Shown here: positions 10,504 through 34,477 of the stretch, in pieces
Layout: every line of letters begins with the position of its first letter
How positions within the stretch are numbered: the stretch's first letter is position 1
NCBI GenBank assembly: GCA_047600765.1
Contig: JASGKF010000002.1
Location: 1,226,344 to 1,290,343, forward strand
Length of the DNA: 64,000 bases
Reading direction: 5' to 3'
Source of the DNA: Rhodocyclaceae bacterium
GTDB taxonomy: Bacteria > Pseudomonadota > Gammaproteobacteria > Burkholderiales > Rhodocyclaceae
Position numbers and translations under genes: made by a program
The notes under the pieces: generated by a model
What the model was told of the DNA's origin: nothing
Databases searched by the model: none
What the model saw: the letters and a program-made list of their open reading frames with translations, nothing else

Positions 10504-10544
10504 CCACCGGCTGCATGCCGTCGTGAGTCCGTCGAGAGATCTGA

Positions 10545-12083: not shown

Positions 12084-12092
12084 GAGCGTCGA

Positions 12093-14595: not shown

Positions 14596-14648
14596 GGATG
14601 ACCGCATGAAACCATCCATCCGCAATCTGGCTGTCACGAGGGGCTGTC

Positions 14649-15782: not shown

Positions 15783-15788
15783 CCAGAT

Positions 15789-16658
15789 ATGAACGCCCGC
15801 AACCGAATCCAATTGCCGACCAACGCCCTGTCGATCGACGTCGAGGACTACTTCCAGGTGTCCGCACTGGCAGGACAGTTTCCGCGTGGTGGCTGGGAAA
15901 CCGTGCCGTGCCGCATCGAACGCAACATGGACCTGATTCTTGCCGTGCTGCACGAGCATGGCGTCAAGGCCACCTTCTTCACGCTGGGCTGGATCGCTGA
16001 GCGTTACCCGAAGCTGGTCCGCCTCATTGTCATGGAAGGCCACGAGTTGGCCAGTCACGGTTACGGCCACGAACGCGCCAGCGACCAGACGCGCGGCGCT
16101 TTCTCGGCGGACGTGCAGCTTGCCAAGGCGGTGCTGGAAGACATCGGCGGCGTCGAGGTGAAGGGCTATCGCGCACCGAGTTTCTCGTTCAGCGACAAGA
16201 ATCCGTGGGCGCATGAGTGCCTGGCTGCCGCGGGTTACCAGTACAGCTCCAGCGTCTATCCCGTGGTGCATGACCATTACGGCATGCCCGATTCGCCGCG
16301 CTTCACCTACAAGCACCCCAGTGGCATCGTCGAGATTCCGGTGACGACGACGCGCTTCATGGGGCGCAACCTGCCGGCGGGTGGTGGTGGCTATTTCCGT
16401 TTCCTGCCCTATGCGGCATCGCGCTGGATGATCCGCCGCGTGAACAAGCAAGACGCACAGTCCGCGATCTTCTACTTCCATCCCTGGGAGCTGGACCCGG
16501 ACCAGCCTCGCGTGCATGACGCACCGGCCAAGTCCCGCTTCCGCCATTACATCAACCTCGACAAGACCGAAGCGCGCCTGCGCCGCCTGCTGAGCGACTT
16601 CCACTGGGGCCGCGTCGACGAGGTGTTCCTCAATCCCGCATTGGCCATCGCGGCCTGA
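15789..16658 (+). CDS. XrtA-system polysaccharide deacetylase
   Basis: SIDVEDYFQV, ATFFTLGW, HELASHGYGH, GYRAPSFS and FYFHPWELD motifs. Confidence 0.92.
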   Translation: MNARNRIQLPTNALSIDVEDYFQVSALAGQFPRGGWETVPCRIERNMDLILAVLHEHGVKATFFTLGWIAERYPKLVRLIVMEGHELASHGYGHERASDQTRGAFSADVQLAKAVLEDIGGVEVKGYRAPSFSFSDKNPWAHECLAAAGYQYSSSVYPVVHDHYGMPDSPRFTYKHPSGIVEIPVTTTRFMGRNLPAGGGGYFRFLPYAASRWMIRRVNKQDAQSAIFYFHPWELDPDQPRVHDAPAKSRFRHYINLDKTEARLRRLLSDFHWGRVDEVFLNPALAIAA

Positions 16659-17722: not shown

Positions 17723-18949
17723 ATGAAGCCGTCGTTGCTCTACCTCGTTCACCGCATCCCGTTTCCGCCCAACAAGGGTGACAAGCTGCGCTCGTTCAAC
17801 CTGCTCAAGTTTCTTGCGCAGCATTACGAGGTGCACCTGGGTTGCTTCGTCGACTACGCGGAAGACATGCAGCACGTGTCGGCACTCAACGAGTTCTGCG
17901 CGTCCGTCCACGTCGAGCAGATCCAGCCGGCTGTGGGCAAGCTGCTGTCGATGCGGGGGCTGCTGACGGGCGAGGCGCTGACCCTGCCGTACTACCGCAG
18001 TGCCAGCATGGCGAAGTGGGTGCGCGACATCGTGACGCAGCGGCAGATCCGCGAAGCCGTGGTGTTCTGCTCGTCGATGGCGCAGTACACCCAGGCCCTG
18101 CCGGACCTGCATTGCGTCGTTGATTTCGTCGATGTCGATTCGGCCAAGTGGACGCGTTATGCGCAAGAGCGCAGCGGTCCGATGGCCTGGTTGTATCGCC
18201 GCGAGGGGGCCCGGTTGGCCGACTTCGAGCGCGATGTGGCGCGCCAGTGTGCTGCCAGCGTGCTGGTGTCGGAGGCCGAGGCGGCGCTGTTCCGTGAGGT
18301 GGCGCCCGAGTCGACGGCGCGCATCCATGCGATTTCAAACGGCGTGAATGCCGAGCTGTACGCGCCGTCCAGTGCGCTGGTCTCGCCCTACGAGCAGGGC
18401 GAGCTTCCAGTCGTCTTCACCGGTGCGATGGACTACTGGCCCAACATCGATGCGGTCTGCGCCTTTGCCGATGAAGTGTGGCCGGCCATCGCGGAGCGCT
18501 GGCCGAGCGCGCGCTTCTGCGTGGTCGGCATGAATCCTTCAGACGCGGTGAAGGCGCTTGCCACGCGCGAGCGCATCACGGTGACCGGCACCGTGCCGGA
18601 CGTACGCCCTTGGCTGCAGCATGCGCGCGTGGTGGTGGCCCCTTTGCGGATTGCCCGCGGCGTGCAGAACAAGATTCTCGAAGCCATGGCCATGGCGCGG
18701 CCTGTCGTGGCTTCGGCCACCTGCGCCGTCGGCGTGGGGGCGGAGCGGGGCAGCGAATTCCTCGTCGCCGAGTCGACGCAGGACTGGCTGGATGCCGTGG
18801 GCGGATTGCTGGGCGATGCGCCGGCTGCCGATGTCATCGGACAACGGGCGAGGGCGCGGATCCTGGCGGATTTCAGCTGGGAGGCGCATCTCAAGGCCTT
18901 CCTCAAGCTGCTGGCAAAAAATGACGCGGAAGCGGGAGTGACGGCATGA
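17723..18949 (+). CDS. GT4 glycosyltransferase, XrtA system (TIGR03087-like)
   Basis: HRIPFPPNKGDKLRS, VFTGAMDYWPN, RGVQNKILEAMAM. Confidence 0.9.
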   Translation: MKPSLLYLVHRIPFPPNKGDKLRSFNLLKFLAQHYEVHLGCFVDYAEDMQHVSALNEFCASVHVEQIQPAVGKLLSMRGLLTGEALTLPYYRSASMAKWVRDIVTQRQIREAVVFCSSMAQYTQALPDLHCVVDFVDVDSAKWTRYAQERSGPMAWLYRREGARLADFERDVARQCAASVLVSEAEAALFREVAPESTARIHAISNGVNAELYAPSSALVSPYEQGELPVVFTGAMDYWPNIDAVCAFADEVWPAIAERWPSARFCVVGMNPSDAVKALATRERITVTGTVPDVRPWLQHARVVVAPLRIARGVQNKILEAMAMARPVVASATCAVGVGAERGSEFLVAESTQDWLDAVGGLLGDAPAADVIGQRARARILADFSWEAHLKAFLKLLAKNDAEAGVTA

Positions 18950-20478
18950 GTGCCACCTGGGTATCGGGGCGGAGCTTGCAACCACGGGTCGCCATCGCGG
19001 CGGCCGTTGCGATGGTTGCCATCATCCTGTTGGTGTTCCACGAAACGGCGCTCGGCGTGTTCCGTATCTGGATGCGCTCGGACACTTTCAATCACTGCCT
19101 GTTGGTGGTGCCGGTCAGCATTTGGCTGATGTGGGAGCGTCGGCGCGATCTGGTCTCGGCGGGTTTCCAGCCGGCCTTGTTCCCGCTGTTGCCTCTCGCC
19201 GGGGCGGCCTTGCTGTGGGTGTTCGGCGAGGCAATCAGTGCGGCTGTCGTATCGCATGCCGCGCTGGTGTTCATGGTGATTGCCGCCATATGGACCTGCT
19301 GGGGCCATCGTGCGAGCTGGCAGGTGCTGTTCCCGCTGTTTTTCCTGGTATTCGGCATCCCCTTTGGCGATTTCCTCGTGCCGATGCTGATGCATTACAC
19401 GGCTGAGTTCACGGTGGCGCTGTTGCGGCTGACGGGCATTCCCGTCTATCAGGAAGGGCAGAATTTCGTCATTCCGAGCGGCCGCTGGTCTGTCGTGGAG
19501 GCCTGCAGCGGCATCCGTTACCTGATCGCTTCGGTGATGGTGGGCGTGCTGTTCGCCTACCTCAATTACCGCAGCCTGACGCGTCGCCTGCTGTTCGTGG
19601 TGGCGTCGTTCGTAGTGCCTTTGCTGGCGAACTGGCTGCGTGCCTACATCATCGTGATGATGGGGCACCTGTCCGGCAACAGTCTGGCCGTGGGCGCCGA
19701 TCACCTGATCTATGGCTGGGTGTTCTTCGGCATCGTCATCGGCCTGCTGTTCTGGGTCGGCAATTTCTGGCGTGAAGACCATCTGCCGCAGGTGCGTCAG
19801 CGAGACTGGCACTGGCGCAGTGCCGGCCGGGTGGCGGTGCCGGCTGTCGTGGTGCTGGGGCTTGCTCTCGTGACGGTGGCAGTGCCGCGTCCCTTGCTGG
19901 GCTGGCTGATGGATGTGCCCGGGGCGGCGGACTATCGTATTCCTGCGGTCACCGTGTCGGGCTGGACTTCCGCTGTGCGTTCGGCGAAGGAGTGGAAGGC
20001 GAGTTTCCGCGGGTCGCGTGTCGAAGACGTGCAGACCTTCGCCAAGGGGCGCGACAAGGTGTCGGTGCAGCTGGCCTACTATGCGCGCCAGACCGAAGGA
20101 CGCGAGCTGGTGCAGTACGACAACTACCTCGTGCAGACCGATGATCCCTTGTGGCACCCGATGAACCGCAAGACGGTGACGGTGGCGCAGGGTGACCGCA
20201 CGCTGACATTCGAACGCGTCGAGCTGGCCGGTGCGGGTGGGCACCTTGTCGTGTTGCGCAGCTACTGGTTGGGCGAGAGTGTTACGCCGTCGGACAAGCT
20301 GGCCAAGCTGGATCTGCTGAAGGCTCGATTACTGCGCAGGCCGGATGATTCCGCCGGCGTTCTGCTGTGGACTTCGGTGGATAATTCGCCCGCGGATGCC
20401 GAGCAGAGGCTCGTCGCCTTCGCTACTGATAACTGGTCCGCCATCGAGGCTGCGCTGCTGCGCACGCCGCTCAAGTAG
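18946..20478 (+). CDS. xrtA: Exosortase A with C-terminal EpsI-like domain
   Basis: Multi-TM N-part with VVEACSGIRYL (catalytic Cys), NWLRAY (Arg) and DHLIYGW (His); periplasmic C-terminal domain. Confidence 0.95.
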   Translation: MSATWVSGRSLQPRVAIAAAVAMVAIILLVFHETALGVFRIWMRSDTFNHCLLVVPVSIWLMWERRRDLVSAGFQPALFPLLPLAGAALLWVFGEAISAAVVSHAALVFMVIAAIWTCWGHRASWQVLFPLFFLVFGIPFGDFLVPMLMHYTAEFTVALLRLTGIPVYQEGQNFVIPSGRWSVVEACSGIRYLIASVMVGVLFAYLNYRSLTRRLLFVVASFVVPLLANWLRAYIIVMMGHLSGNSLAVGADHLIYGWVFFGIVIGLLFWVGNFWREDHLPQVRQRDWHWRSAGRVAVPAVVVLGLALVTVAVPRPLLGWLMDVPGAADYRIPAVTVSGWTSAVRSAKEWKASFRGSRVEDVQTFAKGRDKVSVQLAYYARQTEGRELVQYDNYLVQTDDPLWHPMNRKTVTVAQGDRTLTFERVELAGAGGHLVVLRSYWLGESVTPSDKLAKLDLLKARLLRRPDDSAGVLLWTSVDNSPADAEQRLVAFATDNWSAIEAALLRTPLK

Positions 20479-20489: not shown

Positions 20490-22376
20490 ATGTGTGGCAT
20501 TGCCGGACTATTCGATCTGAAGGGACGCCGCGATCCCGACCGTGCGCTGATCGAGCGCATGAACGACATCCAGTTCCATCGGGGCCCCGATGAAGCGGGC
20601 CTGCACCTGGAGCCCGGCGTCGCGCTGGCGCACCGTCGCCTGTCCATCATCGACCTGGCTAGCGGGCAGCAGCCGCTGTTCAATGCTGACCGTTCGGTCG
20701 TCGTCGTCTTCAATGGCGAGATCTACAACTACCAGGAACTGATGGCCGAGCTGCAGGCGCTGGGTTACCAGTTCCGCACACGCAGCGACACCGAGGTCAT
20801 CGTGCATGGCTGGGCAGCCTGGGGCGAGGCTTGTGTCGAGCGCTTCCGCGGCATGTTCGCATTCGCGTTGTGGGATCGCAATCGCGAGACGGTCTTCATG
20901 GCGCGCGACCGGTTGGGTGTGAAACCGATGTTCTACGCCGAGCTGGCCGATGGCTGGCTGGCCTTCGGTTCTGAACTCAAGACGCTGACGCAATGCGCGG
21001 GGCTGGATCGCCGCCTCGATCCGCACGCGGTCGAAGAGTATTTCGCGCTGGGTTACGTGGCTGACCCGCGCAGCATCTACTGCGGTGCGAAGAAGCTGCC
21101 GGCCGCGCACACGCTCTGCTGGCGTCGCGGCGAATCTCTGCCGCAACCGAAGCGTTACTGGGATCTGCATTTCCAGTCCAACCACAGCATCGGCCTGACC
21201 GAAGCGATGGAAGAGCTGGATGCGCGTCTGGCCGAGTCGATCCGCCTGCGCATGATTGCCGAGGTGCCGCTGGGCGCCTTCCTGTCGGGCGGCGTGGATT
21301 CCAGCGTAGTGGTTGCGCACATGGCACGGCAGTCGTCGGCGCCGGTCAATACCTGCTCCATCGCGTTCGACGATCCGGCCTTCAACGAATCCGCCTTCGC
21401 ACAGCAGGTGGCGGACCGCTACAAGACCAATCACTTCGTCGAGACCGTGACGAGTGACGACTACGACCTCATCGATACGCTGGCTGCGCTCTACGACGAG
21501 CCTTATGCGGACAGCTCGGCGATACCGACCTACCGTGTCTGCCAGCTGGCGCGCAAGCACGTCACCGTGGCTTTGTCCGGCGATGGCGGCGATGAATTCT
21601 TCGGCGGTTACCGCCGCTACCGCCTGCACATGATGGAAGAGCGTGCGCGCGGCATGTTGCCGTTGTGGTTGCGTCGCCCGATGTTCGGCGCAATGGCGCG
21701 GCTTTACCCGAAGGCCGACTGGGCGCCGCGCATGTTCCGCGCCAAGACGACCTTCCAAGGCATTGCGCGTGATTCCGTATCCGCCTATTTCCACAGCATG
21801 TCGGTGCTGCGCGATGACGAACGCAGTGCGCTCTACAGCGACAAGCTGCGTGCCCAGCTTGGTGGTTACCACGCGCAGGAAGCCTTCAACGTGCATGCCG
21901 CACGTGCGCAGACCGATGACCCGCTGGCCTTGATCCAGTACATCGATATCAATACCTGGCTGGTGGGCGACATCAACACCAAGGTGGACCGTGCCTCGAT
22001 GGCCCATGCGCTGGAAGTACGCGAACCGCTGATGGACCACAAGCTCGTCGAATGGGCTGCGACCTTGCCACAGAGCCTGCGCATCAAGGGGCAGGAGGGC
22101 AAGTACCTGCTCAAGCGCGCGGCCGAACCCCTGCTGCCACACGACATCCTGTATCGCCCGAAGATGGGTTTCTCAGTGCCGCTGGCGCGCTGGTTCCGCG
22201 GCCCGCTGAAGGAGCGCGTGCGCTCGGCGCTGACCGGCGAGCGATTGCTCGATACCGGGTTCTTCGACCACAAGAACTTGCGCAGCATGCTCGAAGCGCA
22301 TGAGTCGGGCTTGCGTGACTTCAGCGCGCCGATCTGGTCGCTGGTGATGTTCGACGCCTTCCTGGGGCTGCAGTGA
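20490..22376 (+). CDS. XrtA-system asparagine synthase-like amidotransferase
   Basis: Ntn N-terminus MCGIAG, HRGPDE, AHRRLSIIDL, LSGGVDSS, LSGDGGDE, KVDRASMAHALEVR. Confidence 0.93.
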   Translation: MCGIAGLFDLKGRRDPDRALIERMNDIQFHRGPDEAGLHLEPGVALAHRRLSIIDLASGQQPLFNADRSVVVVFNGEIYNYQELMAELQALGYQFRTRSDTEVIVHGWAAWGEACVERFRGMFAFALWDRNRETVFMARDRLGVKPMFYAELADGWLAFGSELKTLTQCAGLDRRLDPHAVEEYFALGYVADPRSIYCGAKKLPAAHTLCWRRGESLPQPKRYWDLHFQSNHSIGLTEAMEELDARLAESIRLRMIAEVPLGAFLSGGVDSSVVVAHMARQSSAPVNTCSIAFDDPAFNESAFAQQVADRYKTNHFVETVTSDDYDLIDTLAALYDEPYADSSAIPTYRVCQLARKHVTVALSGDGGDEFFGGYRRYRLHMMEERARGMLPLWLRRPMFGAMARLYPKADWAPRMFRAKTTFQGIARDSVSAYFHSMSVLRDDERSALYSDKLRAQLGGYHAQEAFNVHAARAQTDDPLALIQYIDINTWLVGDINTKVDRASMAHALEVREPLMDHKLVEWAATLPQSLRIKGQEGKYLLKRAAEPLLPHDILYRPKMGFSVPLARWFRGPLKERVRSALTGERLLDTGFFDHKNLRSMLEAHESGLRDFSAPIWSLVMFDAFLGLQ

Positions 22377-23518
22377 GCGCTGGGCAGGACAGGAAGCTGG
22401 TGGCCCATGTGGTCTACAGCTTCAAGGCCGGTGGGCTCGAGAACGTCATCGTCCAGCTCATCAACCGCCTGCCGGCCGATCGTTTCCGCCATGTCGTTAT
22501 CGCGCTGACCGAGTGCAGCGAAGAGTTTGCGCAACGTGTGACGGTGCCCGGTGTCGAGTTCATCTCGCTGCACAAGCCGCCGGGGCAGATCTTCCGGCTC
22601 TACCCGCGCCTGTGGCGTCTGCTGCGCCAGCTGCGGCCGGCCGTTTTGCACACCTGCAATCTTGCTGCGCTGGAGGTGACGCCCGTGGCTTGGGTCGCTG
22701 GCGTGCCGTTGCGCGTGCATGCCGAGCATGGCTGGATCGTGGCCGACCCGGACGGCAGCAATCCACGTTTCCGTTTGCTGCGACGGGTGTTCAAGCCTTT
22801 CGTCTCGCATTTCATCGCCGTGTCGCGCCAGCTCAGCGATTACCTGACCGGGCCTATCGGCGTGGCGCCGGGCAAGGTCAGCTTGCTGGCCAATGGCGTC
22901 GATACCGAGGCTTTCCGTCCGCGTGCCGACAACGAGGCTTTGCCAGCAAGCTGGCCCTTTGGTCGTGAGCATTGGGTACTCGGCACCGTGGGGCGTCTCG
23001 ACCCGGTCAAGAACCAGAAACTCCTGCTCGACGCGCTGGCGCTGATCCGCAGCAGCGACACGGAGCTGGCCGCGCGGTTGCGTCTGGTCATCGTGGGTGA
23101 GGGCGGCGAGCGCGTTGCGCTGGAAGCCCACATTGCCGAGCTGGGTCTGCAGGACGCCGTCTGGCTGCCGGGCAGCCGTTCGGACGTTGCCCAACTGTTG
23201 CGCACCATGGATTGTTTTGTGCTGCCTTCGATCGCCGAAGGCACGTCCTGCACGCTGCAGGAAGCCATGGCGAGCGGACTGCCAATTATTGCCACTTCGG
23301 TAGGCGGCAATCCTGATCTACTGGCGCCCGACGCCTGCGGGCTGCTGGTGCCTTCGGGCGATGCGGCGGCGCTGGCGGCGGCCGTGCAGCAGGTGTTTGC
23401 GGGGCAGGGCGAGGCGGCGGGCATGCCCGCGAGGGCACGTCAATCTGCGCTCAGCCGTCACTCGCTTGCTGGCATGATTGCGGCCTACGAAAAGCTGTTC
23501 GACCGCGCTGGGCATTGA
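22373..23518 (+). CDS. GT4 glycosyltransferase, XrtA system (TIGR03088-like)
   Basis: GGLENVIVQLIN, HAEHGW, VGRLDPVKNQ, LPSIAEGTSCTLQEAMASGLP. Confidence 0.9.
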   Translation: MSAGQDRKLVAHVVYSFKAGGLENVIVQLINRLPADRFRHVVIALTECSEEFAQRVTVPGVEFISLHKPPGQIFRLYPRLWRLLRQLRPAVLHTCNLAALEVTPVAWVAGVPLRVHAEHGWIVADPDGSNPRFRLLRRVFKPFVSHFIAVSRQLSDYLTGPIGVAPGKVSLLANGVDTEAFRPRADNEALPASWPFGREHWVLGTVGRLDPVKNQKLLLDALALIRSSDTELAARLRLVIVGEGGERVALEAHIAELGLQDAVWLPGSRSDVAQLLRTMDCFVLPSIAEGTSCTLQEAMASGLPIIATSVGGNPDLLAPDACGLLVPSGDAAALAAAVQQVFAGQGEAAGMPARARQSALSRHSLAGMIAAYEKLFDRAGH

Positions 23519-23549
23519 GCTCCGCGCTCGCTCCCCAACAAATTCTGCA

Positions 23550-25235
23550 ATGACCGTGTCCCCTGTTCCTGTCGACAAATTGCCGACGGCTGCGCCATCT
23601 GCTGCCGGGCGCTGGCCTGCGTGGTTGGAGGCGCTGCTCGTGGCGCTGGCGGGTGCGCTGTTTTTCCGCCTGCTGCTGTCCGACCTGATGGTCGATGACG
23701 CGCCGGCATACGTCGAAGCGCTGCACGCCAACCGTTTCGTATGGGACGTGGCTCACCTGTGGGTGCAGCCGCTGGCCCTGATTGCCTTCCGTCTCCTGAG
23801 CCCCGCGCTGAATGCCGTCCAGTTGCTTGAGGCGATGAACGTCACCGCCTGCGCACTGGCCATGGGCATCTTCTTCCGCACCTTGCGTCTGGCGGGTTTG
23901 TCCCTGCCGCGCGCGCTTGCCGGCGTGGCCCTGCTGGCGGTGAGTTTCAACATCGTTTCGCTGGGGCCGACGGCCCATATCAAGCTGCTGGTCTTTCCTG
24001 CACTGGCTGCGGCCCTGCACTATGCCGTGCGTTGGGAGTTGGCTTTGCAGACGGGCAGGGCTTCACTGCGCGATATCGCGATATCAGGGATGTGGTTGGG
24101 CGTCGGCGCGACGCTTCTGGTCAGCGTGCTGCCGATGGGGCCTTTCATCGCGTTGATGGCACTGTGGGCAGTGCGGCGCCAAGGAGGCTCCTGGCGTGCG
24201 GGATGGCAGGCAGGCGTGGTTTTCGGTATTGCAATGGGCATCAGCGGCCTGGTGTTCCTGTTGGCTGGATACCTTACGGCACTGGCGACGGACACGACGC
24301 ATGCCGGGCTGGTGGCTTTCGTGCGAGGCAGCGTGGCTGACAAGGATGCGATGCACGCGGGCTTCTTCGGTTTCGTCGAAGTGCCGGCTCGCATTGTGTA
24401 CAGCCTCATCTACAACTTCGTATTCCTGCCCGACATCGGTTCGTTGGGGCGCGCCGCCATGCACGGCATGGTGCATGACCTGACGCCCTATGCGCCGCGA
24501 CTGCTGCGTGATGCGCTGGTGGCAGGTGGTACCTTGCTCGCGCTGGGGACGATCCTCTGGTTCAGTGTGCGTGCCGTGATGCAACGCCGTGGTCATCTGA
24601 TGCCCTTTGGCTTCCTGCTTGGCGCTGCAGCTTTTGCGGCGTACTGGAATCTCAATGACCCCGAACACTGGTTCCAGTTCACCCTGCCCATTGTTGTGCT
24701 CATTGCACTGAACTGCCCGCATCGTGTGGCCGGCGTCTTGTTGTTCGTCTGGATGCCTGCGCTGGCAGTTGTGAACCTTGGACTGTACGGCGTGCACAGG
24801 GCGCGCTTTGACGTTGCTGCCGGCGTGCAGGACGTCAGGGAGAAAATTGGCGCACAAGGCCTCTATGTGGGTTACGCCGGTTATCCGGGTGAGCCCGATT
24901 CGAGCGTGTTGCCTGTGCCGGGCCTGCAACGTTTCAGGTTGGACACGCTCTTCTATACATCGCGTGACGCGCAGACGATCCAGGCGCAGATGACGTTGGC
25001 TATCGATACGACGCTGGCACGTGGTGGTCGCGTGTTCGTGTTCCGCGTGCTCGATGAAGGCGATTGGCGTGGCCCCATCCTTGCCTTGAGCATGAGCGGG
25101 CTGTCACGTATGGAACTGAGCCGGACACTGCGCGAGCGCTACGTTATTGCGGACGAAACCGTTGTAGGCGGTTTCCCGGCACATGAGATCATTGGCATCA
25201 AGCGGGAAGTGGCGCTGGCGCCGCGGAATCCCTGA
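23550..25235 (+). CDS. Polytopic membrane protein, possible GT-C-fold glycosyltransferase
   Basis: About 10-12 hydrophobic segments, an acidic DD motif in the first loop (MVDDAPAY) and a soluble C-terminal tail; start at ATG 23550. Confidence 0.55.
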   Translation: MTVSPVPVDKLPTAAPSAAGRWPAWLEALLVALAGALFFRLLLSDLMVDDAPAYVEALHANRFVWDVAHLWVQPLALIAFRLLSPALNAVQLLEAMNVTACALAMGIFFRTLRLAGLSLPRALAGVALLAVSFNIVSLGPTAHIKLLVFPALAAALHYAVRWELALQTGRASLRDIAISGMWLGVGATLLVSVLPMGPFIALMALWAVRRQGGSWRAGWQAGVVFGIAMGISGLVFLLAGYLTALATDTTHAGLVAFVRGSVADKDAMHAGFFGFVEVPARIVYSLIYNFVFLPDIGSLGRAAMHGMVHDLTPYAPRLLRDALVAGGTLLALGTILWFSVRAVMQRRGHLMPFGFLLGAAAFAAYWNLNDPEHWFQFTLPIVVLIALNCPHRVAGVLLFVWMPALAVVNLGLYGVHRARFDVAAGVQDVREKIGAQGLYVGYAGYPGEPDSSVLPVPGLQRFRLDTLFYTSRDAQTIQAQMTLAIDTTLARGGRVFVFRVLDEGDWRGPILALSMSGLSRMELSRTLRERYVIADETVVGGFPAHEIIGIKREVALAPRNP

Positions 25236-25255: not shown

Positions 25256-26572
25256 GTGAAGATATCCGTATTCGGTCTGGGTTACGTGGGCGCCGTGTCC
25301 TGCGCATGTCTGCCCGAACTGGGCCACGAAGTGATCGGCGTCGACATCAGCCCGCAGAAGGTCAGCATGATCAACACCGGCCAGTCGCCGGTGGTTGAAG
25401 AAGGTATCAACGAGCTGATCGAAGCCGCCGTGAAGGCCGGCAAGCTGCGCGCGACTGATGATGTGGCAGCTGCCATCGCCGGCAGCGAGGTGTCGCTGAT
25501 TTCGGTGGCCACGCCTTCCAACCCCAACTACACGCCCAATCTGACGGCCGTCGATGCCGTGATCCGTTCGATTGGCGAAGCCGTGCGCAAGAAGGACACG
25601 CATCACACGGTGGTCATCCGCAGCACGGTGCAACCGGGCACGACCGAAGACCGCATCAAGCCCATTCTCGAAGAAGCGGCTGGTCGCAAGGTGGGTGATC
25701 GTCTGTCGCTGGTCTTCAACCCGGAGTTCCTGCGCGAAGGTTCGTCGGTCAAGGATTTTCACCAACCGCCGCAGACCGTCATCGGCAGTCTCGACGAGCA
25801 GGGCTATGCCGTGATGGAGAAGATGTACGACGGCCTGCCCGGCATCTTCGTGCGCACCTCCTGCAAGGTCGCCGAGTCGGTGAAGTACCTCTGCAACGTC
25901 TTCCATGCGATGAAGATCGTGTTCGCCAACGAGGCGGGCTCGGTGCTGAAGTCCTGCGGCCTCGATGGTCGCGAAGTCATGAAGATTTTCTGCCAGGACA
26001 CGCAGCTCAACATCTCGCCGGCCTACCTGCGCCCCGGTTTCGCTTTCGGCGGCTCCTGCCTGCCGAAGGAAGTGAAGGGCTTCTTCACGCTGGCGCGCGA
26101 GCACGATGTGCCGATTCCCGCGTTGTCCGCGTTGCTAGACAGCAACGAGGCGCATATCGACCGCGCTTTCAGCATGATTGCCAAGAACGGTCGCAAGAAG
26201 GTCGCGCTGTTCGGTCTGGCCTTCAAACCGGGCACTGACGACATGCGTGACTCGCCCCTCGTGGTGCTGGCCGAGCGTTTGTTGGGCAAGGGCTTCGATA
26301 TTTCGATCTACGACAACTTCGTGAAGATCAGCCGCCTGCTCGGCAAGAACAAGGAGTTCATCGAGCGCGAGATTCCGCACCTTGACCGCCTGCTGGGCGA
26401 GACGCCGGAAGCTGTGCTGGCCGATGCCGAAGTCATCGTCATCGGCCACGCCGATGCCGCTGCACGCCAGGCCATCATTGCGCATGCCGCGGGTCGTCGC
26501 ATCGTTGACCTCTCTGGCTACGCTGACATCCGCACCGCACCGGCTGCCGAGTACGAAGGCATCTGCTGGTGA
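25256..26572 (+). CDS. Nucleotide-sugar 6-dehydrogenase, AlgD (GDP-mannose dehydrogenase) type
   Basis: GLGYVGAV, NPEFLREG, KYLCNVFHA, PGFAFGGSCLPK, and a C-terminal EGICW identical to the end of Pseudomonas AlgD. Confidence 0.88.
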   Translation: MKISVFGLGYVGAVSCACLPELGHEVIGVDISPQKVSMINTGQSPVVEEGINELIEAAVKAGKLRATDDVAAAIAGSEVSLISVATPSNPNYTPNLTAVDAVIRSIGEAVRKKDTHHTVVIRSTVQPGTTEDRIKPILEEAAGRKVGDRLSLVFNPEFLREGSSVKDFHQPPQTVIGSLDEQGYAVMEKMYDGLPGIFVRTSCKVAESVKYLCNVFHAMKIVFANEAGSVLKSCGLDGREVMKIFCQDTQLNISPAYLRPGFAFGGSCLPKEVKGFFTLAREHDVPIPALSALLDSNEAHIDRAFSMIAKNGRKKVALFGLAFKPGTDDMRDSPLVVLAERLLGKGFDISIYDNFVKISRLLGKNKEFIEREIPHLDRLLGETPEAVLADAEVIVIGHADAAARQAIIAHAAGRRIVDLSGYADIRTAPAAEYEGICW

Positions 26573-27795
26573 GCAAGCCGAAGTTAGCGTTCGTCTCGCC
26601 AGTCTTTCTGTATCCCACCGATGCCGGCGGCAAGATCCGCACGACCAACATCCTGCGCGGGCTGAAGGGCGGGGCGTTCGACATTACGCTGCTGAGCCCG
26701 GCCAGCGAGTCGCAGAAGGCGCAGTGGGGTGACGCACTGGCACAGGTCAGCGACCGCTTCCTCGGTTGGCAGCCGAGTGCAGAGAGGCCGCGCTGGCAGC
26801 GCGTGTTCGATCTGTTCGGTGACTTGCCGGTCAACGTCGCCAACGACAACACGGCGGCTGCGCGCGAATGCGTTGCGCAGACGCTGGCGCGCGAGAAGTT
26901 CGATGTCGTGGTGTTCGACTTCGTGCATGCGGCCGTGCTGAAGCCGGTGCAGCTCGATGCGGCAACCGTGTGCTTTACGCACAACGTCGAAGCCGAGATC
27001 TTCGGCCGCCATGCGCAGACGGCCAGCAATCCGCTTATGCGTCGCGTGTGGGCCTCGCAGTACGCCAAGATGCAGCGCTTCGAACGTGAAGCGCTCAGTA
27101 GTTTCACGTCAGTGATCGCGGTATCGGAGCGTGATGCCGCGTTCTTCCGCAAGGATTATGCGCTGTCTGAAGTGGCTGACATCCCCACCGGCGTGGACCT
27201 CGATTTCTTCAGCTGGGCCTTGCCGCCCACCGTCGATGAGGCAAACCCGCCGACCGTGGTGTTCACGGGCTCGATGAACTGGGATGCCAACATCGATGGC
27301 GTTACGCACTTCCTCGATGATGTGTGGCCGCTGGTATTGCGTGAGATGCCGCAGGCGCGCTTCGTCGTTGTCGGCCGCAACGCACCGGCGTCCCTCATCG
27401 AGCGCGGTCAGAAACTCAGCGGCGTCAGTTTCACGGGTTTCGTCGATGACGTGCGCCCGTATGCCCACGCCGCGCATGCTTTCGTGATTCCGCTGCGTGT
27501 TGGCGGTGGTACGCGCATCAAGGCATTCGAGGCCATGGCGATGGGTTGCCCTGTCGTCTCGACGGCCATCGGCATCGAAGGTCTCGACGTGACGCCGGAC
27601 GAACACTACCTGCAGCGCGATGCGCCGCAGGACCAGGCCAATGCCGTGCTGGCATTGCTGCGTGACGCCGACCTCCGCGAACGTGTTTCGCGTCAGGCGC
27701 GCCAGTGCGTTGAAGACCGCTACGGTCATCGCGTTGCAGCTGACGTGTTCGAGAAGATCTGCCTGAGCGCGCTGGCCAAGCGTCGTAGTGCCTGA
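26569..27795 (+). CDS. GT4 glycosyltransferase
   Basis: YPTDAGGKIRT, VFTGSMNWDAN, PLRVGGGTRIKAFEAMAMG. Confidence 0.9.
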   Translation: MSKPKLAFVSPVFLYPTDAGGKIRTTNILRGLKGGAFDITLLSPASESQKAQWGDALAQVSDRFLGWQPSAERPRWQRVFDLFGDLPVNVANDNTAAARECVAQTLAREKFDVVVFDFVHAAVLKPVQLDAATVCFTHNVEAEIFGRHAQTASNPLMRRVWASQYAKMQRFEREALSSFTSVIAVSERDAAFFRKDYALSEVADIPTGVDLDFFSWALPPTVDEANPPTVVFTGSMNWDANIDGVTHFLDDVWPLVLREMPQARFVVVGRNAPASLIERGQKLSGVSFTGFVDDVRPYAHAAHAFVIPLRVGGGTRIKAFEAMAMGCPVVSTAIGIEGLDVTPDEHYLQRDAPQDQANAVLALLRDADLRERVSRQARQCVEDRYGHRVAADVFEKICLSALAKRRSA

Positions 27796-27800: not shown

Positions 27801-28985
27801 ATGGCAAAGATCCGCACACTGCTGTTCTCGACGCTCTACCCGAGCAGCGTGCGGCCGAGTCATGGCATCTTCGTCGAGACCCGCCTGCGCGAACTGCTCG
27901 CCAGCGGTGAAGTCGAGACGCAAGTGGTTGCCCCCGTTCCATGGTTTCCGTTGACAGCCCCGCGCTTTGGTGACTGGGCGCAGATGGCAAGTACGCCGCA
28001 CGTGGAAACGCACAACGGCATCCAGGTGCACCATCCGCGTTACGTCCTACCGCCCAAGATTGGTATGAACGTAGCGCCGTGGATGCTGGCTTGGGGGGCG
28101 CGTGCGACGGTCGCGAAGCTGATTCGCGGCGGCTTCGATTTCGATCTCATCGACGCGCATTACTACTACCCGGACGGTGTGGCGGCAGCGATGCTGGCGC
28201 GCTGGTTCAACAAGCCCTTCGTTGTCACGGCGCGCGGCACCGATCTGAACCTCATCCCGCAGCATGCCTGGCCACGTCGTCTGATCAAACAGACGGCAGA
28301 AGCCGCAGCAGGCTCCATCGGCGTGTGTGGCGCCCTGATGGATGTGCTGCGAGACATGGGCGTCGATGCGCAGAAGCTGCACGTGATGCGCAATGGCGTC
28401 GACCTGCAGCGCTTTGTACCCGAAGACCGCCAGGCCGCGCGAGCAAAGCTGGGGTTGCAACAGGATGGGCGTTGGCTGGTCTCTGTCGGTCATCTCATCG
28501 AGCGCAAGGGGCACGACATCGCCATCGCCGCGCTCCCTTCGCTGCCTGCCGACGTGCGTCTGGCGATTGTTGGCGATGGTGTCGAACGCGCACGCCTTGT
28601 CGCGCAGGCGCAGCAGCTTGGCGTGACAGACCGCGTACATTTCGCTGGCTCGCGCCCGCAGACCGAACTCAAGTGGTGGTACAGCGCTGCGGATGCGCTG
28701 ACGCTGTGTTCCAGCCGAGAGGGCTGGGCGAACGTGCTGCTGGAGGCCATGGCTTGCGGTACGCCGGTGATTGCGACGAATATCTGGGGGACCCCGGAAG
28801 TCGTGTCGGATCCCTGTGCGGGTGAGTTGATGCAAGAGCGTAGTTCCACGGGCCTGTTACAGGCGTTTGAGAGACTGACGGCACGCGTGACGGATCGGGC
28901 GACGGTGCGTCGTTACGCCGAGGGCTTCTCCTGGCAGGCGACGACTAGCGGGCAACTGGCACTTTTCAGGAAAGCGAAGGGCTGA
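27801..28985 (+). CDS. GT4 glycosyltransferase
   Basis: IDAHYYYPDG, VTARGTD, VGHLIERKG, SREGWANVLLEAMACG. Confidence 0.9.
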   Translation: MAKIRTLLFSTLYPSSVRPSHGIFVETRLRELLASGEVETQVVAPVPWFPLTAPRFGDWAQMASTPHVETHNGIQVHHPRYVLPPKIGMNVAPWMLAWGARATVAKLIRGGFDFDLIDAHYYYPDGVAAAMLARWFNKPFVVTARGTDLNLIPQHAWPRRLIKQTAEAAAGSIGVCGALMDVLRDMGVDAQKLHVMRNGVDLQRFVPEDRQAARAKLGLQQDGRWLVSVGHLIERKGHDIAIAALPSLPADVRLAIVGDGVERARLVAQAQQLGVTDRVHFAGSRPQTELKWWYSAADALTLCSSREGWANVLLEAMACGTPVIATNIWGTPEVVSDPCAGELMQERSSTGLLQAFERLTARVTDRATVRRYAEGFSWQATTSGQLALFRKAKG

Positions 28986-28989: not shown

Positions 28990-29160
28990 ATGGAAGCGAT
29001 CATCATGCTCGCAGACATCCTGTGCATGCTGGCGTTGTGTCTCAGCCTGGTGCGCCTGAGCCGCGGAAAGACGAAAGATCTGGGGGTCTTCAAGTACAAG
29101 CTGGAAGAAGGCGAACAACAGCCCGAAGACTCCAGTCGCAAGGGGAGCGAGCGTGCGTGA
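28990..29160 (+). CDS. 56-aa small membrane protein (missed by the ORF track)
   Basis: MEAIIMLADILCMLALCLSLVRLSRGKTKDLGVFKYKLEEGEQQPEDSSRKGSERA*; exactly fills the gap between the GT4 and the ligase, and its stop overlaps the GTG at 29153. Confidence 0.7.
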   Translation: MEAIIMLADILCMLALCLSLVRLSRGKTKDLGVFKYKLEEGEQQPEDSSRKGSERA

Positions 29161-30458
29161 CCTGGCAATGGCCATCGCGATGCTGGGTTTTGTGTACCTG
29201 GCATTTTCCAGCAATCTGGTCGCATACCTGCTGTGGGGGTGGACGGCTTTTGTAGCCATCAATTTCTACCTGTATGGCTTCCTGGCCAGCTTCCAGTTCA
29301 ACATGCTGTTCGCTGTCGTCAGTGTTGCCATGTTTGCCTTGGCAAAGGATCCCGAGAAGCTACCGTTCTTGCCAAACAGGGTCAGCATTTTGTTCCTGTT
29401 ATTTGCGGTGCAGTTGACGCTGACCTTCGTTTTTGCGTTGGACGGCAGCATCCAGTCTTACTTCTTCTGGACGCTTATCCTTAAAGTTCTGCTGTTCGGC
29501 ATCCTGATGCCTATGGTCATCACGACCAGGGTCCGCATCTACGCGATGGCGGTGACGTTGACCCTCGGTCTTGCCATGCACGGCGTGGTCGAAGGTGGCA
29601 AGTTCATCAATTCCGGCGGTGGACACCATGTCGTTGGCCTCCCCAAGTTCGGTGATAACAACCACTTCGCGTTGCTTGTTGTAATGGGTATGCCCTTGCT
29701 GATCTACATGTTCCAGCATTCAGTCAGCAAGCTCGTCAAACTCAGTACGGTGTTCGGCCTTATCTTTTCGGTGGCGGCGGTTGTGGGTACGCATTCACGT
29801 GGCGGCTTGCTGTCGATGATGCTGGCGGGGGGGTGGCTGGTGTGGAGCGGACGACGCAAGGGCGTCGGTATTGCTGCTTTGATTGCAGGCGCGGTGATCA
29901 TCGTTGCGACAGCGCCGGAGTCCTGGTCCGAGCGTATGAACACCATCAAGACAGCCGAGGAAGATTCCTCGTTCATGGGGCGGGTGGAGGCCTGGAAGGT
30001 GAGTTCCGCCATCGCACTGGCCCGTCCGCTGACAGGGGGGGGGATTCCATGGCGTCGAACATCGATCAGTCTGGGTGGAATATCGCGATAGTCCGAGCTT
30101 GCTGTCGAGCGTGGAAACGCCTTATACGCTGGCTGGGCGTGCCGCGCATAGTGCCTATTTCGAGGTGCTGGGCGACATGGGCTTCGTCGGACTGTTCCTC
30201 TTCCTGGCAATACTGATTACGCCGTTCCTGGCGCGCAACGAGATACGTCGGGTGGCCAAAGCCCATGGACCAGGTTTGATCTGGGCGTCCGATCTTGCAG
30301 ATACCCTGTCTGCAGTCATGTTCGCCTATGTCGTCGGTGCTGCAGCGCTGAGTGTGGCTTATTTTGAAGCCATGTATGCCATCGTGATGCTTATGGAGAC
30401 GCTGCGTCAGTATGTTCTGAGAACTACAAAAGCCGGCTATATGGGAGGCGCACTGTGA
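29153..30458 (+). pseudogene. Putative O-glycosylation ligase/polymerase, exosortase A-associated (O-antigen ligase family), frameshifted at a G9 tract
   Basis: ORF 29153..30091 has DNNHFAL, THSRGG and SFMGRVEAW. The C-terminal AAHSAYFEVLGDMGFVG lies in ORF 30075..30458. Removing one G from 30035-30043 joins them as LTGGGFHGVEHRSVWVEYRD (434 aa). Confidence 0.85.
30035..30043 (+). repeat. G9 homopolymer at the frameshift
   Basis: gacaGGGGGGGGGattccat read directly from the sequence. Confidence 0.95.
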
Positions 30459-33421: not shown

Positions 33422-34477
33422 TCAGCTCTCGGCCTGTTTGGTGCTCTTCAGTGATTGCAGACGCCAGCGAAGCGAGTTGAGTGCGCGGTCCATCATTGCC
33501 AACGGCGTGGTGCGCGCATAGTAGCCACGCAGGTAGACGTGTTCTTCGTTGGCGAAGTCACGCTTTGCCTGCGTATCGCCTTCTCCTCTATCCACGCAGC
33601 GTATGCCCAGAGAAGGCGCATGACGCAGCGTTTCCCACAGCAGCAAGCGACCCGGCGAGTAGCTGTGCAGCTCCGGCGTGTAAACGGGGAACCAGTACGA
33701 CAGCGTGTCGTGGCACTGCAGCCCGAAGTGCGCCGCGATGCGTTTGTCGCCGCAGTACAGCGCGGTCAGTCGTGGCAGGCAGCGTAGATCAGCTTGCGCT
33801 GCGAGGTGCTTCAGCAGTTGTGCGTCGCGTGTGCGGGAGAACGGGTGATTGCGCTGGGCGGTGCGCTGATACTGCGCCACCTTCAGGTCGACGAGCCAGT
33901 CCAGCGTACCGCTGTCGACGGATTCAACAGCAAAGCGCAAGGGGCCGTGATCGCGTTCCAACTTGTTGCGTCGGCGCTCGGTGTCCGCAGCAAATTTCTT
34001 GTCGCGCTTGAACAGGGCTTCGATGAAGTCTTCGCCGTCGGCGGCGCGGATGCGCAAGCCGCGTGCGGGCTGGTTGCCGTGCAAGCCGTAGGCATCTTGC
34101 GAGCTGTCGAGATGCGTGAACAGCAGGCTATTGAGGCCACAGGCGCGCAGCAGTTCTTCAGGCGTGATGCGGAAACCGGGGGCGGCAACCAGGCCGAAGT
34201 AATCGGCGAAGCTGCCGCCTGCGGGCTGGGCGCTGCCGAGCAGGCGTGCCTGCAAGCCGTCGAGTTCGAAAGGCATGAACGCCTGCGCCTGGCCTTGCGC
34301 ATCAAGGAAGACGCAGACACGCACGGGCGTTTCGCGGCTCAGGGCACAAGCCACCACATAGCTGCGGGAGAGGAAGGCGTTGCGGGCAGGCGCTTCGTCG
34401 AGCAGGGTGTCCCAGCGTGCGGCATGGCTGGCGTCCAGGTCTTGTGCAGGAACAACGATGGAATGCAGCGTGCTCAT
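33422..34477 (-). CDS. GNAT acyltransferase, CelD/BcsL (Acetyltransf_6)-like
   Basis: ADYFGLV, RRRNKLER, YSPGRLLL, DRGEGDTQAKRDFA; start MSTLHS at 34477. Confidence 0.8.
   Translation of the reverse strand: MSTLHSIVVPAQDLDASHAARWDTLLDEAPARNAFLSRSYVVACALSRETPVRVCVFLDAQGQAQAFMPFELDGLQARLLGSAQPAGGSFADYFGLVAAPGFRITPEELLRACGLNSLLFTHLDSSQDAYGLHGNQPARGLRIRAADGEDFIEALFKRDKKFAADTERRRNKLERDHGPLRFAVESVDSGTLDWLVDLKVAQYQRTAQRNHPFSRTRDAQLLKHLAAQADLRCLPRLTALYCGDKRIAAHFGLQCHDTLSYWFPVYTPELHSYSPGRLLLWETLRHAPSLGIRCVDRGEGDTQAKRDFANEEHVYLRGYYARTTPLAMMDRALNSLRWRLQSLKSTKQAES

What the first reader, a model, noticed from the sequence alone, without database searches (positions are those of the whole stretch)
25256..26572. 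AlgD-type GDP-mannose dehydrogenase in a flippase-dependent, non-alginate EPS locus
The sequence follows Pseudomonas AlgD closely, including GFAFGGSCLPK and the terminal EGICW, but alg8, alg44, algK, algE and algG are absent. This suggests mannuronate is built into a Wzx-type repeat unit, where the adjacent amidotransferase could amidate it. A uronic acid would also provide a lyase substrate.
Basis: partly seen in the sequence, partly recalled or inferred. Interest (0 to 1): 0.55.

Follow-up and report, generated by a model that had tools for sequence, protein, structure and literature searches.

The report
Mannuronate-donor enzyme in exosortase slime locus
This gene very probably makes GDP-mannuronic acid, the building block of alginate, but here it sits in a different, common kind of slime-making gene cluster (exosortase/PEP-CTERM type), as a small swappable cassette with its own sugar-transferase; it is a sound but fairly ordinary find.

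Summary
ORF 25256-26572 (+) encodes a complete 438-aa AlgD-type GDP-mannose 6-dehydrogenase (GMD). It aligns without gaps to P. aeruginosa AlgD up to residue 412, at 46-47% identity. The catalytic Cys268 and four of five GMD signature residues are kept. Asp272 is Glu in its whole clade. No alg8, alg44, algK, algE, algG, algX, algJ or algF was found in the window or in the 93%-complete genome.

The locus is a textbook XrtA/PEP-CTERM ("zooglan-like") Wzx/Wzy exopolysaccharide locus. The GMD is translationally coupled to a paralogue of the XrtA glycosyltransferase stp1. This pair is conserved in all 12 Burkholderiales loci where the downstream flank could be read, and these GMDs form a clade apart from alginate-operon AlgDs. 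Three congeners have a collinear locus with one GT4 gene in place of the membrane protein + GMD + GT cassette.

Mannuronate in a flippase-made repeat unit is therefore the best reading. Amidation is unproven: the amidotransferase is a core XrtA gene, and 12 of 18 XrtA-positive relatives have it without a GMD. However, AsnB-family genes are enriched beside non-alginate GMDs.

This scan has noted the same pattern in at least eight other genomes. I class it as a new member of a known kind, of modest interest.

The parts
25256..26572 (+). AlgD-type GDP-mannose 6-dehydrogenase (GMD), 438 aa
   Evidence: Three Pfam domains. PDB 1mfz E 3.5e-132. Signature residues R122, C213, H217 and A263 and catalytic C268, K210 and N214 are kept; D272 is E. 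AF2 model pLDDT 91, best Foldseek E-value to 1mfz.
26569..27795 (+). GT4 glycosyltransferase, paralogue of stp1 (TIGR03087). Candidate mannuronosyltransferase, translationally coupled to the GMD.
   Evidence: GTGA start/stop overlap. TIGR03087 195 bits, below the 317-bit cut-off. 30% identical over its full length to the canonical stp1 of this locus. Follows the GMD in all 12 related loci with a readable downstream flank.
23478..25235 (+). 585-aa multi-pass membrane protein, possibly GT-C/PMT_2-like. Third member of the genus-specific cassette.
   Evidence: No Pfam or NCBIfam hit. The language-model look-alikes are mostly unnamed clusters; only lower-ranked ones carry PMT_2/ArnT, so this is a lead only. 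Present only in the congeners that have the GMD.
27801..28985 (+). GT4 glycosyltransferase (best NCBIfam hit TuaC, below cut-off). Kept in congeners without the GMD.
20490..22376 (+). XrtA/PEP-CTERM system amidotransferase (AsnB family)
   Evidence: TIGR03108 1063 bits against an 817-bit cut-off. GATase_7 + Asn_synthase domains.
22373..23518 (+). stp2 (TIGR03088) XrtA-system GT4
   Evidence: 465 bits against a 409-bit cut-off.
18946..20478 (+). Exosortase A with EpsI domain
   Evidence: TIGR03109 339 bits; TIGR02914.
17723..18949 (+). stp1 (TIGR03087) XrtA-system glycosyltransferase
   Evidence: 526 bits.
9880..16658 (+). Export and core genes: Wza-like, Wzz-like, XrtA-associated tyrosine kinase, TIGR03016 outer-membrane protein, TIGR03015 ATPase, TIGR03006 deacetylase
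29153..30091 (+). TIGR03097 Wzy/O-antigen-ligase-like protein (ORF truncated)
Evidence: 205 bits against a 188-bit cut-off, profile positions 1-298 of 408.
34474..35907 (-). MOP-family flippase (Wzx)
   Evidence: Polysacc_synt_3 174 bits; MOP flippase models.
47052..49566 (-). AlgI-like MBOAT (48088-49566) plus a weak AlgX/AlgJ-like SGNH protein (47052-48122): an alginate-style O-acetylation pair
   Evidence: 44% identity to AlgI of L116. DltB model hit. ALGX 25 bits, just under the cut-off.

Best explanation
The gene encodes a working NAD-dependent GDP-mannose 6-dehydrogenase. [quoted passage not shown] The GDP-mannose comes from an unlinked AlgA-like PMI-GMP and from one of three PGM/PMM-family phosphohexomutases.

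The overlapping downstream gene encodes a GT4 that is a paralogue of the XrtA-system transferase stp1. I infer that it transfers the mannuronate onto an undecaprenyl-diphosphate-linked repeat unit. A TIGR03013 EpsB-type transferase, encoded 21.6 kb past the window, would prime that unit. The unit would then be flipped by the MOP flippase, polymerised or ligated by the TIGR03097 Wzy-like protein, and exported by the Wza/Wzc-like proteins of the XrtA/PEP-CTERM locus. An AlgI-like MBOAT pair may O-acetylate it.

The GMD and its GT (plus a membrane protein in this genus) form a swappable cassette that changes the chemistry of the slime from strain to strain.

Shown: enzyme family, signature residues, locus type, gene coupling, conserved pairing, cassette presence/absence, and no alginate machinery found. 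Inferred: substrate, donor use by the GT, and the place of mannuronate in the polymer.
For: - Family: PDB AlgD scores 444 bits against 220 bits for the best UGDH, and the best Foldseek E-value is to 1mfz.
- Residues: GMD-specific R122, C213, H217 (contacts mannose O2'') and A263 are present, as listed in PMC4794789. They were checked in an alignment, together with catalytic C268, K210, N214, T124, E157 and E161.
- Phylogeny: the protein sits inside the GMD radiation, in a 100%-supported clade of 15 XrtA-locus GMDs.
- Pairing: the GMD is followed by a GT_26569 orthologue in 12 of 12 readable Burkholderiales loci, and the pair lies in or beside XrtA-type genes. The two genes overlap by 4 bp.
- Deeper GMD lineages also sit next to TIGR03087-family GTs (L117, L118, L132). 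In L133 the neighbouring GT was linked to stp1 only by tblastn.
- Congeners G401, G402 and G406 have collinear loci with one 390-aa GT4 in the cassette's place.
- Locus identity comes from about 12 XrtA-specific NCBIfam models above cut-off. The flippase is, the priming transferase, the AlgA-like gene and PMM-family genes.
- ManA in Wzx/Wzy repeat units is chemically known in Rhizobium alamii (preprint 10.64898/2026.08.21.746188).
Against: - No enzyme assay or polymer chemistry exists for this clade.
- Asp272, a conserved active-site carboxylate of the family (my own knowledge of UGDH/GMD mechanism), is Glu in all 15 clade members. Lys250 is Gln and Leu126 is not kept.
- NCBIfam places the protein only in the generic TIGR03026 subfamily.
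- The donor specificity of the coupled GT is unknown, and it has no characterised close relative.
- The Wzy-like gene is broken in this assembly, possibly by sequencing error.
- The genome is only 93% complete, so absence of alginate genes is 'not found'.
Confidence: 0.65

Rival explanations
1. The mannuronate is converted to mannuronamide by an AsnB-type amidotransferase (here the XrtA amidotransferase), either on the nucleotide sugar or on the lipid-linked unit, as WbpS does for GalNAcA in the P. aeruginosa O6 antigen. This adds to the main explanation rather than excluding it.
For: - The XrtA amidotransferase lies directly upstream of the GMD in most Burkholderiales loci: within 100 bp in 8 of them (L008-L014, L016).
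- Separate AsnB paralogues sit beside GMDs of other lineages (L117, L118, L132, L133).
- An AsnB-family ORF lies within 5 kb in 15 of 34 non-alginate GMD loci, against 0 of 7 alginate-type and 0 of 21 UGDH-like control loci.
- The R. gelatinosus XrtA-locus AsnB is reported as 37% identical to WbpS, and its mutation changes aggregation (PMC3684757).
- The GMD is the only uronate-forming dehydrogenase in this locus.
Against: - TIGR03108 is a core XrtA gene. It scores above cut-off in 18 of 41 relatives, and 12 of those lack a GMD. These include three congeners with collinear loci.
- Only 8 of 18 XrtA-positive genomes have any NDP-sugar dehydrogenase within about 20 kb of the amidotransferase. 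One of the 8 (G414) is only probable, because the two genes lie on different contigs.
- The adjacency can be explained by the variable region starting right after the conserved core.
- The loci counted are related, so the enrichment is overstated.
- In this window two genes separate the amidotransferase from the GMD.
Confidence: 0.25
2. The enzyme is not a GDP-mannose dehydrogenase. It oxidises another nucleotide sugar (UDP-glucose, UDP-ManNAc or a GDP-hexose variant), and the AlgD likeness reflects ancestry only.
For: Clade-wide D272E and K250Q substitutions and loss of L126. Only the generic TIGR03026 model passes its cut-off. No member of this clade has been assayed: no paper combines PEP-CTERM with GDP-mannose dehydrogenase.
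Against: - His217 is kept. UDP-ManNAc dehydrogenases commonly have Arg and UDP-glucose dehydrogenases Leu at this position. Ala263, where the other families have Gly, is kept too.
- The score against AlgD is twice that of any UGDH.
- The genome has a separate Ugd-type enzyme scoring 455 bits on TIGR03026.
- GT4 partners commonly use GDP-mannose-type donors (my own knowledge).
Confidence: 0.1
3. GDP-mannuronate feeds a glycan that is attached to PEP-CTERM proteins or to another acceptor by the ligase-like TIGR03097 protein, rather than a free polymerised exopolysaccharide.
For: NCBI names TIGR03097 'putative O-glycosylation ligase, exosortase A system-associated'. Floc formation in relatives needs both EPS genes and PEP-CTERM proteins (PMC9850573).
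Against: The locus has a full Wza/Wzc-type export set and a chain-length determinant, which points to a secreted polymer. No glycoprotein evidence exists.
Confidence: 0.1
4. A cryptic alginate-like homopolymer is made by a non-canonical synthase, for example the NodB-GT2 fusion at 30455-32464.
For: A GT2 is present in the locus. An AlgI-like MBOAT and a weak AlgX-like protein are present. A PL5 lyase is present in the genome.
Against: - No Alg8, Alg44, AlgK, AlgE or AlgG was found.
- The GT2 is fused to a de-N-acetylase domain, which suggests an N-acetyl-hexosamine substrate.
- The PL5 lyase is present in congeners with and without the GMD.
- The GMD's conserved partner is a GT4, not the GT2.
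Confidence: 0.04

Closest known systems
AlgD, GDP-mannose 6-dehydrogenase of Pseudomonas aeruginosa (PDB 1mfz/1muu/1mv8; EC 1.1.1.132)
   Same: Same length and three-domain architecture. The alignment has no gap up to residue 412. The catalytic Cys268 motif GGSCLPK, four of five GMD signature residues and the C-terminal GICW are shared.
   Different: Only 46-47% identical. Asp272 is Glu, Lys250 is Gln and Leu126 is Gln. It lies in a separate clade from the alginate-operon enzymes. It is not followed by alg8-alg44-algK-algE-algG, and it is not the first gene of a synthase-dependent operon.
XrtA/PEP-CTERM ('zooglan-like') floc EPS loci of Zoogloea resiniphila, Aquincola tertiaricarbonis and Rubrivivax gelatinosus (psc1)
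   Same: Same core gene set and order (ATPase, deacetylase, FemAB, stp1, XrtA, amidotransferase, stp2 and others). An A. tertiaricarbonis genome carries the orthologous GMD-GT-GT block at 74% identity (L016).
   Different: The papers I could read do not mention a GDP-mannose dehydrogenase in these loci. The published R. gelatinosus S1 cluster lists a CapL-type dehydrogenase instead. In this genus the GMD cassette is present in only 3 of 7 genomes searched.
Rhizobium alamii Wzx/Wzy exopolysaccharides with one mannuronic acid per repeat unit
   Same: They show that ManA can be a residue of a flippase/polymerase-made heteropolysaccharide (preprint 10.64898/2026.08.21.746188).
   Different: A different phylum-level lineage and locus type. 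No exosortase context is described, and the precursor enzyme is not identified as an AlgD-type GMD in the passages I read.
WbpS, AsnB-type uronamide-forming amidotransferase of the P. aeruginosa O6 antigen
   Same: The locus amidotransferase has the same GATase + Asn_synthase architecture. An orthologous XrtA-locus protein is reported as 37% identical to WbpS (PMC3684757).
   Different: It is a core XrtA gene whose presence does not track any locus-encoded uronate dehydrogenase. I did not compare it with WbpS myself.

Membership tests
GDP-mannose 6-dehydrogenase (AlgD/GMD clade of the UDPG_MGDP_dh family) | N-terminal NAD-binding, central and C-terminal nucleotide-sugar-binding domains over the full length | tested here: met
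   PF03721 189 bits, PF00984 83 bits, PF03720 45 bits. TIGR03026 371 bits against a 190-bit cut-off.
GDP-mannose 6-dehydrogenase (AlgD/GMD clade of the UDPG_MGDP_dh family) | Catalytic Cys268 in GGSC, with Lys210, Asn214, Thr124, Glu157 and Glu161 | tested here: met
   All are present in the window protein and in 15 of 15 clade members.
GDP-mannose 6-dehydrogenase (AlgD/GMD clade of the UDPG_MGDP_dh family) | Active-site Asp272 (GGSCLPKD) | tested here: not met
   Glu in all 15 XrtA-clade members. Asp in 28 of 28 other non-alginate GMDs, in 4 of 4 XrtA2 members plus L117, and in 8 of 13 alginate-linked ones. The carboxylate is conserved and the change is fixed in the clade, so this is a variant and not a defect.
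GDP-mannose 6-dehydrogenase (AlgD/GMD clade of the UDPG_MGDP_dh family) | GMD-specific residues His217, Ala263, Arg122, Cys213 and Leu126 (group-entropy analysis, PMC4794789) | tested here: met
   Four of five are kept. Leu126 is Gln; the paper reports this position as conserved in only 35 of 45 GMDs and as distant from the active site.
GDP-mannose 6-dehydrogenase (AlgD/GMD clade of the UDPG_MGDP_dh family) | Closer to a characterised GMD than to UDP-glucose or UDP-ManNAc dehydrogenases, and inside the GMD radiation in a tree | tested here: met
   444 bits against 220 (UGDH) and 132 (UDP-ManNAcA DH). The tree has operon-verified AlgDs and a paralogue outgroup.
GDP-mannose 6-dehydrogenase (AlgD/GMD clade of the UDPG_MGDP_dh family) | Domain-swapped dimer | tested here: inconclusive
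   The monomer AF2 model (pLDDT 91) has its best E-value to 1mfz but TM 0.51 to that chain, against TM 0.83 to an unswapped UGDH. I read the low TM as the domain swap in the crystal chain (my interpretation). A monomer model cannot show swapping.
GDP-mannose 6-dehydrogenase (AlgD/GMD clade of the UDPG_MGDP_dh family) | Oxidises GDP-mannose to GDP-mannuronate with 2 NAD+ | not testable with these tools
   Needs an enzyme assay.
Alginate biosynthesis system (algD-8-44-K-E-G-X-L-I-J-F-A) | Alg8 synthase with Alg44 c-di-GMP co-polymerase | tested here: not met
   No tblastn hit in the whole genome at E 1e-5, using proteins of a verified operon.
Alginate biosynthesis system (algD-8-44-K-E-G-X-L-I-J-F-A) | AlgK/AlgE export, AlgG epimerase, AlgX/AlgJ/AlgF acetylation proteins | tested here: not met
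   No tblastn hits. PF13372 found nothing. Only an AlgI-like MBOAT (44% identity), a sub-threshold ALGX hit, a 30%-identical PL5 lyase elsewhere and an AlgA-like gene on the other contig.
XrtA/PEP-CTERM exosortase EPS locus | Exosortase A plus the system-specific amidotransferase, stp1, stp2, FemAB, deacetylase, ATPase, outer-membrane protein, tyrosine kinase, ligase-like protein, acyl-CoA ligase and decarboxylase | tested here: met
   TIGR03109, 03108, 03087, 03088, 03019, 03006, 03015, 03016, 03018, 03097, 03098 and 03099 all score above their curated cut-offs.
XrtA/PEP-CTERM exosortase EPS locus | PEP-CTERM-system priming sugar transferase EpsB_2 | tested here: met
   TIGR03013 528 bits against a 393-bit cut-off, at G000:C2:1311937-1313262, 21.6 kb beyond the window.
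XrtA/PEP-CTERM exosortase EPS locus | PEP-CTERM substrate proteins in the genome | not tested
WbpS-type uronamide amidotransferase (for the gene at 20490-22376) | Presence tracks a uronic-acid-forming dehydrogenase in the same locus | tested here: not met
   12 of 18 genomes with TIGR03108 above cut-off lack a GMD. Only 8 of 18 have any TIGR03026 dehydrogenase within about 20 kb, one of them (G414) only probable.

The most novel reading that the evidence does not exclude
GDP-mannuronate, perhaps partly amidated, is a recurrent building block of exosortase-linked floc and biofilm polysaccharides in freshwater and activated-sludge Burkholderiales (Piscinibacter, Rhodoferax, Roseateles, Aquincola, Rubrivivax, Massilia and this Rhodocyclales-type genus). 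It is delivered by a laterally mobile GMD + stp1-like GT cassette. Such mannuronate-bearing heteropolymers, rather than true alginate, could account for part of the 'alginate-like exopolymer' signal reported from sludge and granules.
Probability: 0.25. Interest if true: 0.55.

Novelty: new member of a known kind. Interest (0 to 1): 0.3.

Why it matters
If the prediction holds, mannuronic acid is not confined to alginate in these bacteria. It would be a strain-variable residue of the exosortase-type slime that holds flocs and biofilms together. That gives a concrete genetic marker, the GMD plus its coupled GT, for predicting acidic EPS chemistry in wastewater and freshwater Burkholderiales. It also gives a natural presence/absence comparison among congeners, and a way to test whether the long-unexplained XrtA amidotransferase acts on uronic acids. 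It adds no new enzyme class or mechanism.

Tried and rejected
1. Link between the GMD and a stand-alone PL5 'alginate lyase' (G000:C2:453757-454797, PF05426 141 bits). Rejected: homologues are present in all five congeners searched, with or without the GMD.
2. 'The XrtA amidotransferase always accompanies a locus-encoded uronate dehydrogenase'. Rejected: only 8 of 18.
3. 'GMD is strictly tied to exosortase systems'. Only a modest enrichment. By my hand count from the tables, 13 of 26 GMD-positive genomes in a 400-genome class sample have an exosortase, against about 98 of 375 GMD-negative ones. An exosortase lies within 10 kb in only some lineages.
4. Compositional sign of recent transfer. None: GC is 0.58-0.66 across the locus.
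5. Literature. No paper combines PEP-CTERM with GDP-mannose dehydrogenase. The Aquincola paper does not mention the gene. The key earlier Aquincola paper, PMC5494619, is not held.
7. The 50%-representative search and the cluster look-up gave no organism names of use.
8. The fold search adds little beyond the sequence match.

The counts include one unpublished genome each (G296, G141). No sequence from either was used in the tree or in any locus analysis.
Full report
**What is there.** The ORF at 25256-26572 (+) encodes 438 aa. It starts at GTG, six bases after a GGAAGGA ribosome-binding-like site. It contains GFAFGGSCLPK at residues 261-271 and ends in EGICW.
- Pfam finds the three domains of the UDP-glucose/GDP-mannose dehydrogenase family. 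NCBIfam places the protein only in the generic nucleotide-sugar dehydrogenase subfamily TIGR03026.
- Among solved structures, P. aeruginosa AlgD is by far the best match. It scores E 3.5e-132 and 444 bits, spans residues 1-438, and has no gap before residue 412. The best UDP-glucose dehydrogenase scores 220 bits.
- Identity is 46% to 1mfz. It is 47% to the AlgD of a canonical algD-8-44-K-E-G-X-L-I-J-F-A operon that I recovered from another genome (L116) and checked by Pfam.
- An AlphaFold2 model (pLDDT 91) has its best Foldseek E-value to 1mfz. Its TM-score to that chain is low, which I read as the domain swap in the crystal chain.

**Is it a GDP-mannose enzyme?** A published group-entropy study lists His217, Leu126, Ala263, Arg122 and Cys213 as the residues that set GMDs apart from UDP-glucose and UDP-ManNAc dehydrogenases. 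His217 contacts the mannose 2''-hydroxyl (PMC4794789).
- In my alignment the window protein and all 15 members of its clade keep Arg122, Cys213, His217 and Ala263. They also keep the catalytic Cys268, Lys210, Asn214, Thr124, Glu157 and Glu161. Leu126 is not kept.
- Asp272 of the GGSCLPKD motif is Glu in all 15 clade members. It is Asp in 28 of 28 other non-alginate GMDs.
- Lys250 is Gln in both XrtA-linked clades.
- These changes are fixed across the clade, so they are not assembly errors. They remain an untested difference in the active site.

**No alginate machinery was found.** tblastn with the twelve proteins of the verified operon found, in the whole genome (4.12 Mb, 93% complete), only four things. 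These are the GMD itself, an AlgI-like MBOAT (44% identity; window 48088-49566, minus strand), a 30%-identical PL5 lyase about 770 kb away, and an AlgA-like PMI-GMP on the other contig. Nothing matched Alg8, Alg44, AlgK, AlgE, AlgG, AlgX, AlgJ or AlgF. PF13372 (Alginate_exp) also found nothing.

**What the locus is.** From about 9.9 to 53 kb the window is a textbook XrtA/PEP-CTERM exopolysaccharide locus.
- It has a Wza-like exporter, a chain-length determinant, the XrtA-associated tyrosine kinase, the TIGR03016 outer-membrane protein, the TIGR03015 ATPase, the TIGR03006 deacetylase and the TIGR03019 FemAB protein.
- It also has stp1, exosortase A with EpsI, the TIGR03108 amidotransferase, stp2, the TIGR03097 ligase/Wzy-like protein, a MOP flippase, and the TIGR03098/03099 ligase and decarboxylase. 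The system-specific models score above their curated cut-offs.
- The system's priming transferase (TIGR03013) lies 21.6 kb past the window.
- Recent literature calls this locus type 'zooglan-like'.

**The GMD and its partner.** The stop codon of the GMD overlaps the GTG start of the next gene (GTGA). That gene encodes a GT4 that is a 30%-identical, full-length paralogue of stp1.
- Thirteen betaproteobacterial loci carry GMDs 74-84% identical to this one: Piscinibacter, Pseudoduganella, Massilia, Rhodoferax, Roseateles, Rubrivivax, Aquincola tertiaricarbonis and several MAGs. The same GT follows the GMD in all 12 whose downstream flank is readable.
- In nine of these loci the XrtA amidotransferase is the first gene found on the GMD's upstream side. 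In 8 loci an AsnB-family ORF, mostly this amidotransferase, lies within 100 bp.
- In a maximum-likelihood tree these sequences and the window form a 100%-supported clade of 15. All 15 lie in or beside XrtA-type gene sets. The clade is separate from three alginate-operon groups (Pseudomonas-type, roseobacter-type, Hyphomicrobium-type) and from a second XrtA-linked GMD clade.
- Deeper GMD lineages also sit next to TIGR03087-family GTs (L117, L118, L132). Some sit next to other exosortases.

**A swappable cassette.** The genus appears to be a 'Rhodocyclales bacterium'-type lineage.
- Only 3 of 7 genomes of the genus have this GMD.
- The three GMD-less congeners with an XrtA locus are collinear through XrtA, amidotransferase and stp2, and again from the next GT4 onward. 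In between they carry a single, different 390-aa GT4. Here that slot holds a 585-aa membrane protein, the GMD and the coupled GT.
- The window's sequence nests next to a Piscinibacter sequence (support 92). Other genera of its own family carry only the distant XrtA2-type GMD at 45-46% identity. Lateral gain is therefore likely, but I did not test this with a rooted analysis. GC content shows nothing unusual.

**The amidation idea.** The amidotransferase is not adjacent in this window.
- It is a core XrtA gene. It scores above cut-off in 18 of 41 relatives, and 12 of those have no GMD.
- Only 8 of 18 have any nucleotide-sugar dehydrogenase within about 20 kb, one of them only probable. Its conserved role therefore cannot be specific to mannuronate.
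- In its favour, a paper on Rubrivivax gelatinosus reports that the orthologous protein is 37% identical to WbpS, the uronamide-forming enzyme. The same paper reports that its mutation alters aggregation (PMC3684757).
- An AsnB-family ORF lies within 5 kb of 15 of 34 non-alginate GMD loci, 0 of 7 alginate-type loci and 0 of 21 UGDH-like control loci. These loci are related to one another, so the contrast is overstated.
- I give amidation about one chance in four.

**The lyase remark.** I did not retest it. The PL5 lyase elsewhere in the genome has homologues in all five congeners searched, whether or not they have the GMD. It says nothing about this polymer.

**How new is it?** GMDs outside alginate operons are common. 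Among roughly 400 genomes sampled across the class, 26 have a GMD-type gene. I read flanks of about 10 kb for 16 of these, and only three lie next to alg8.
- Mannuronic acid in Wzx/Wzy repeat units is chemically known in Rhizobium alamii.
- This scan has at least eight earlier notes of AlgD-like genes with GT4 or AsnB partners outside alginate loci in other genomes. One follow-up judged such a case real but fairly ordinary.
- I did not find in the literature the GMD + stp1-like GT cassette as a recurrent, strain-variable part of XrtA/PEP-CTERM loci.

**Verdict.** This is a new member of a known enzyme family in a known locus type, of modest interest. The tallies each include one unpublished genome (G296, G141).

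Noticed in passing
window 47052-49566 (-): An AlgI-like MBOAT (44% identical to the AlgI of a true alginate operon) lies next to a protein with a sub-threshold AlgX/AlgJ SGNH hit (25 bits). This is an alginate-style O-acetylation pair inside an exosortase locus. Similar AlgI-like genes lie near GMDs in L009 and L024.
   Followed up: partly
window 25256-26572, residues 250 and 272: Asp272 of the GGSCLPKD active-site motif is Glu in all 15 members of this XrtA-linked GMD clade, and also in the Hyphomicrobium-type alginate-linked group. Lys250 is Gln in both XrtA-linked clades but Lys almost everywhere else.
   Followed up: partly
window 23478-25235 (+): A 585-aa multi-pass membrane protein with no Pfam or NCBIfam family. 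The language-model look-alikes are mostly unnamed clusters, and only lower-ranked ones carry PMT_2/ArnT (GT-C). It is present only in the congeners that have the GMD cassette.
   Followed up: partly
G000:C2:453757-454797 (-), outside the window (L141:7758-8798): A stand-alone PL5 'alginate lyase' family protein (PF05426, 141 bits) in a genome where no alginate synthase was found. Homologues are present in all five congeners searched, so it is not tied to the GMD.
   Followed up: yes
L117, L118, L132, L133 (other genomes): Second AsnB-family paralogues sit directly beside GMDs. In L117 and L118 they match the amidotransferase profile only from about position 103-108 onward, so their N-termini do not match the first ~100 positions of the glutaminase domain.
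   Followed up: partly
L122:10881-12887 (-) (other genome): A heparinase II/III-like protein lies immediately upstream of a GMD, which is followed by a methyltransferase, a GT4, an exosortase-EpsI fusion and a WecA-like transferase. This is another exosortase-linked GMD locus type.
   Followed up: no
window 29153-30091 (+): The TIGR03097 Wzy/ligase-like ORF covers only profile positions 1-298 of 408.
   Followed up: no
L005, L006, L008, L013 (other genomes): Several XrtA loci that carry the GMD also carry a second, distant nucleotide-sugar dehydrogenase (26-34% identical). These polymers may therefore hold two different uronic acids.
   Followed up: no
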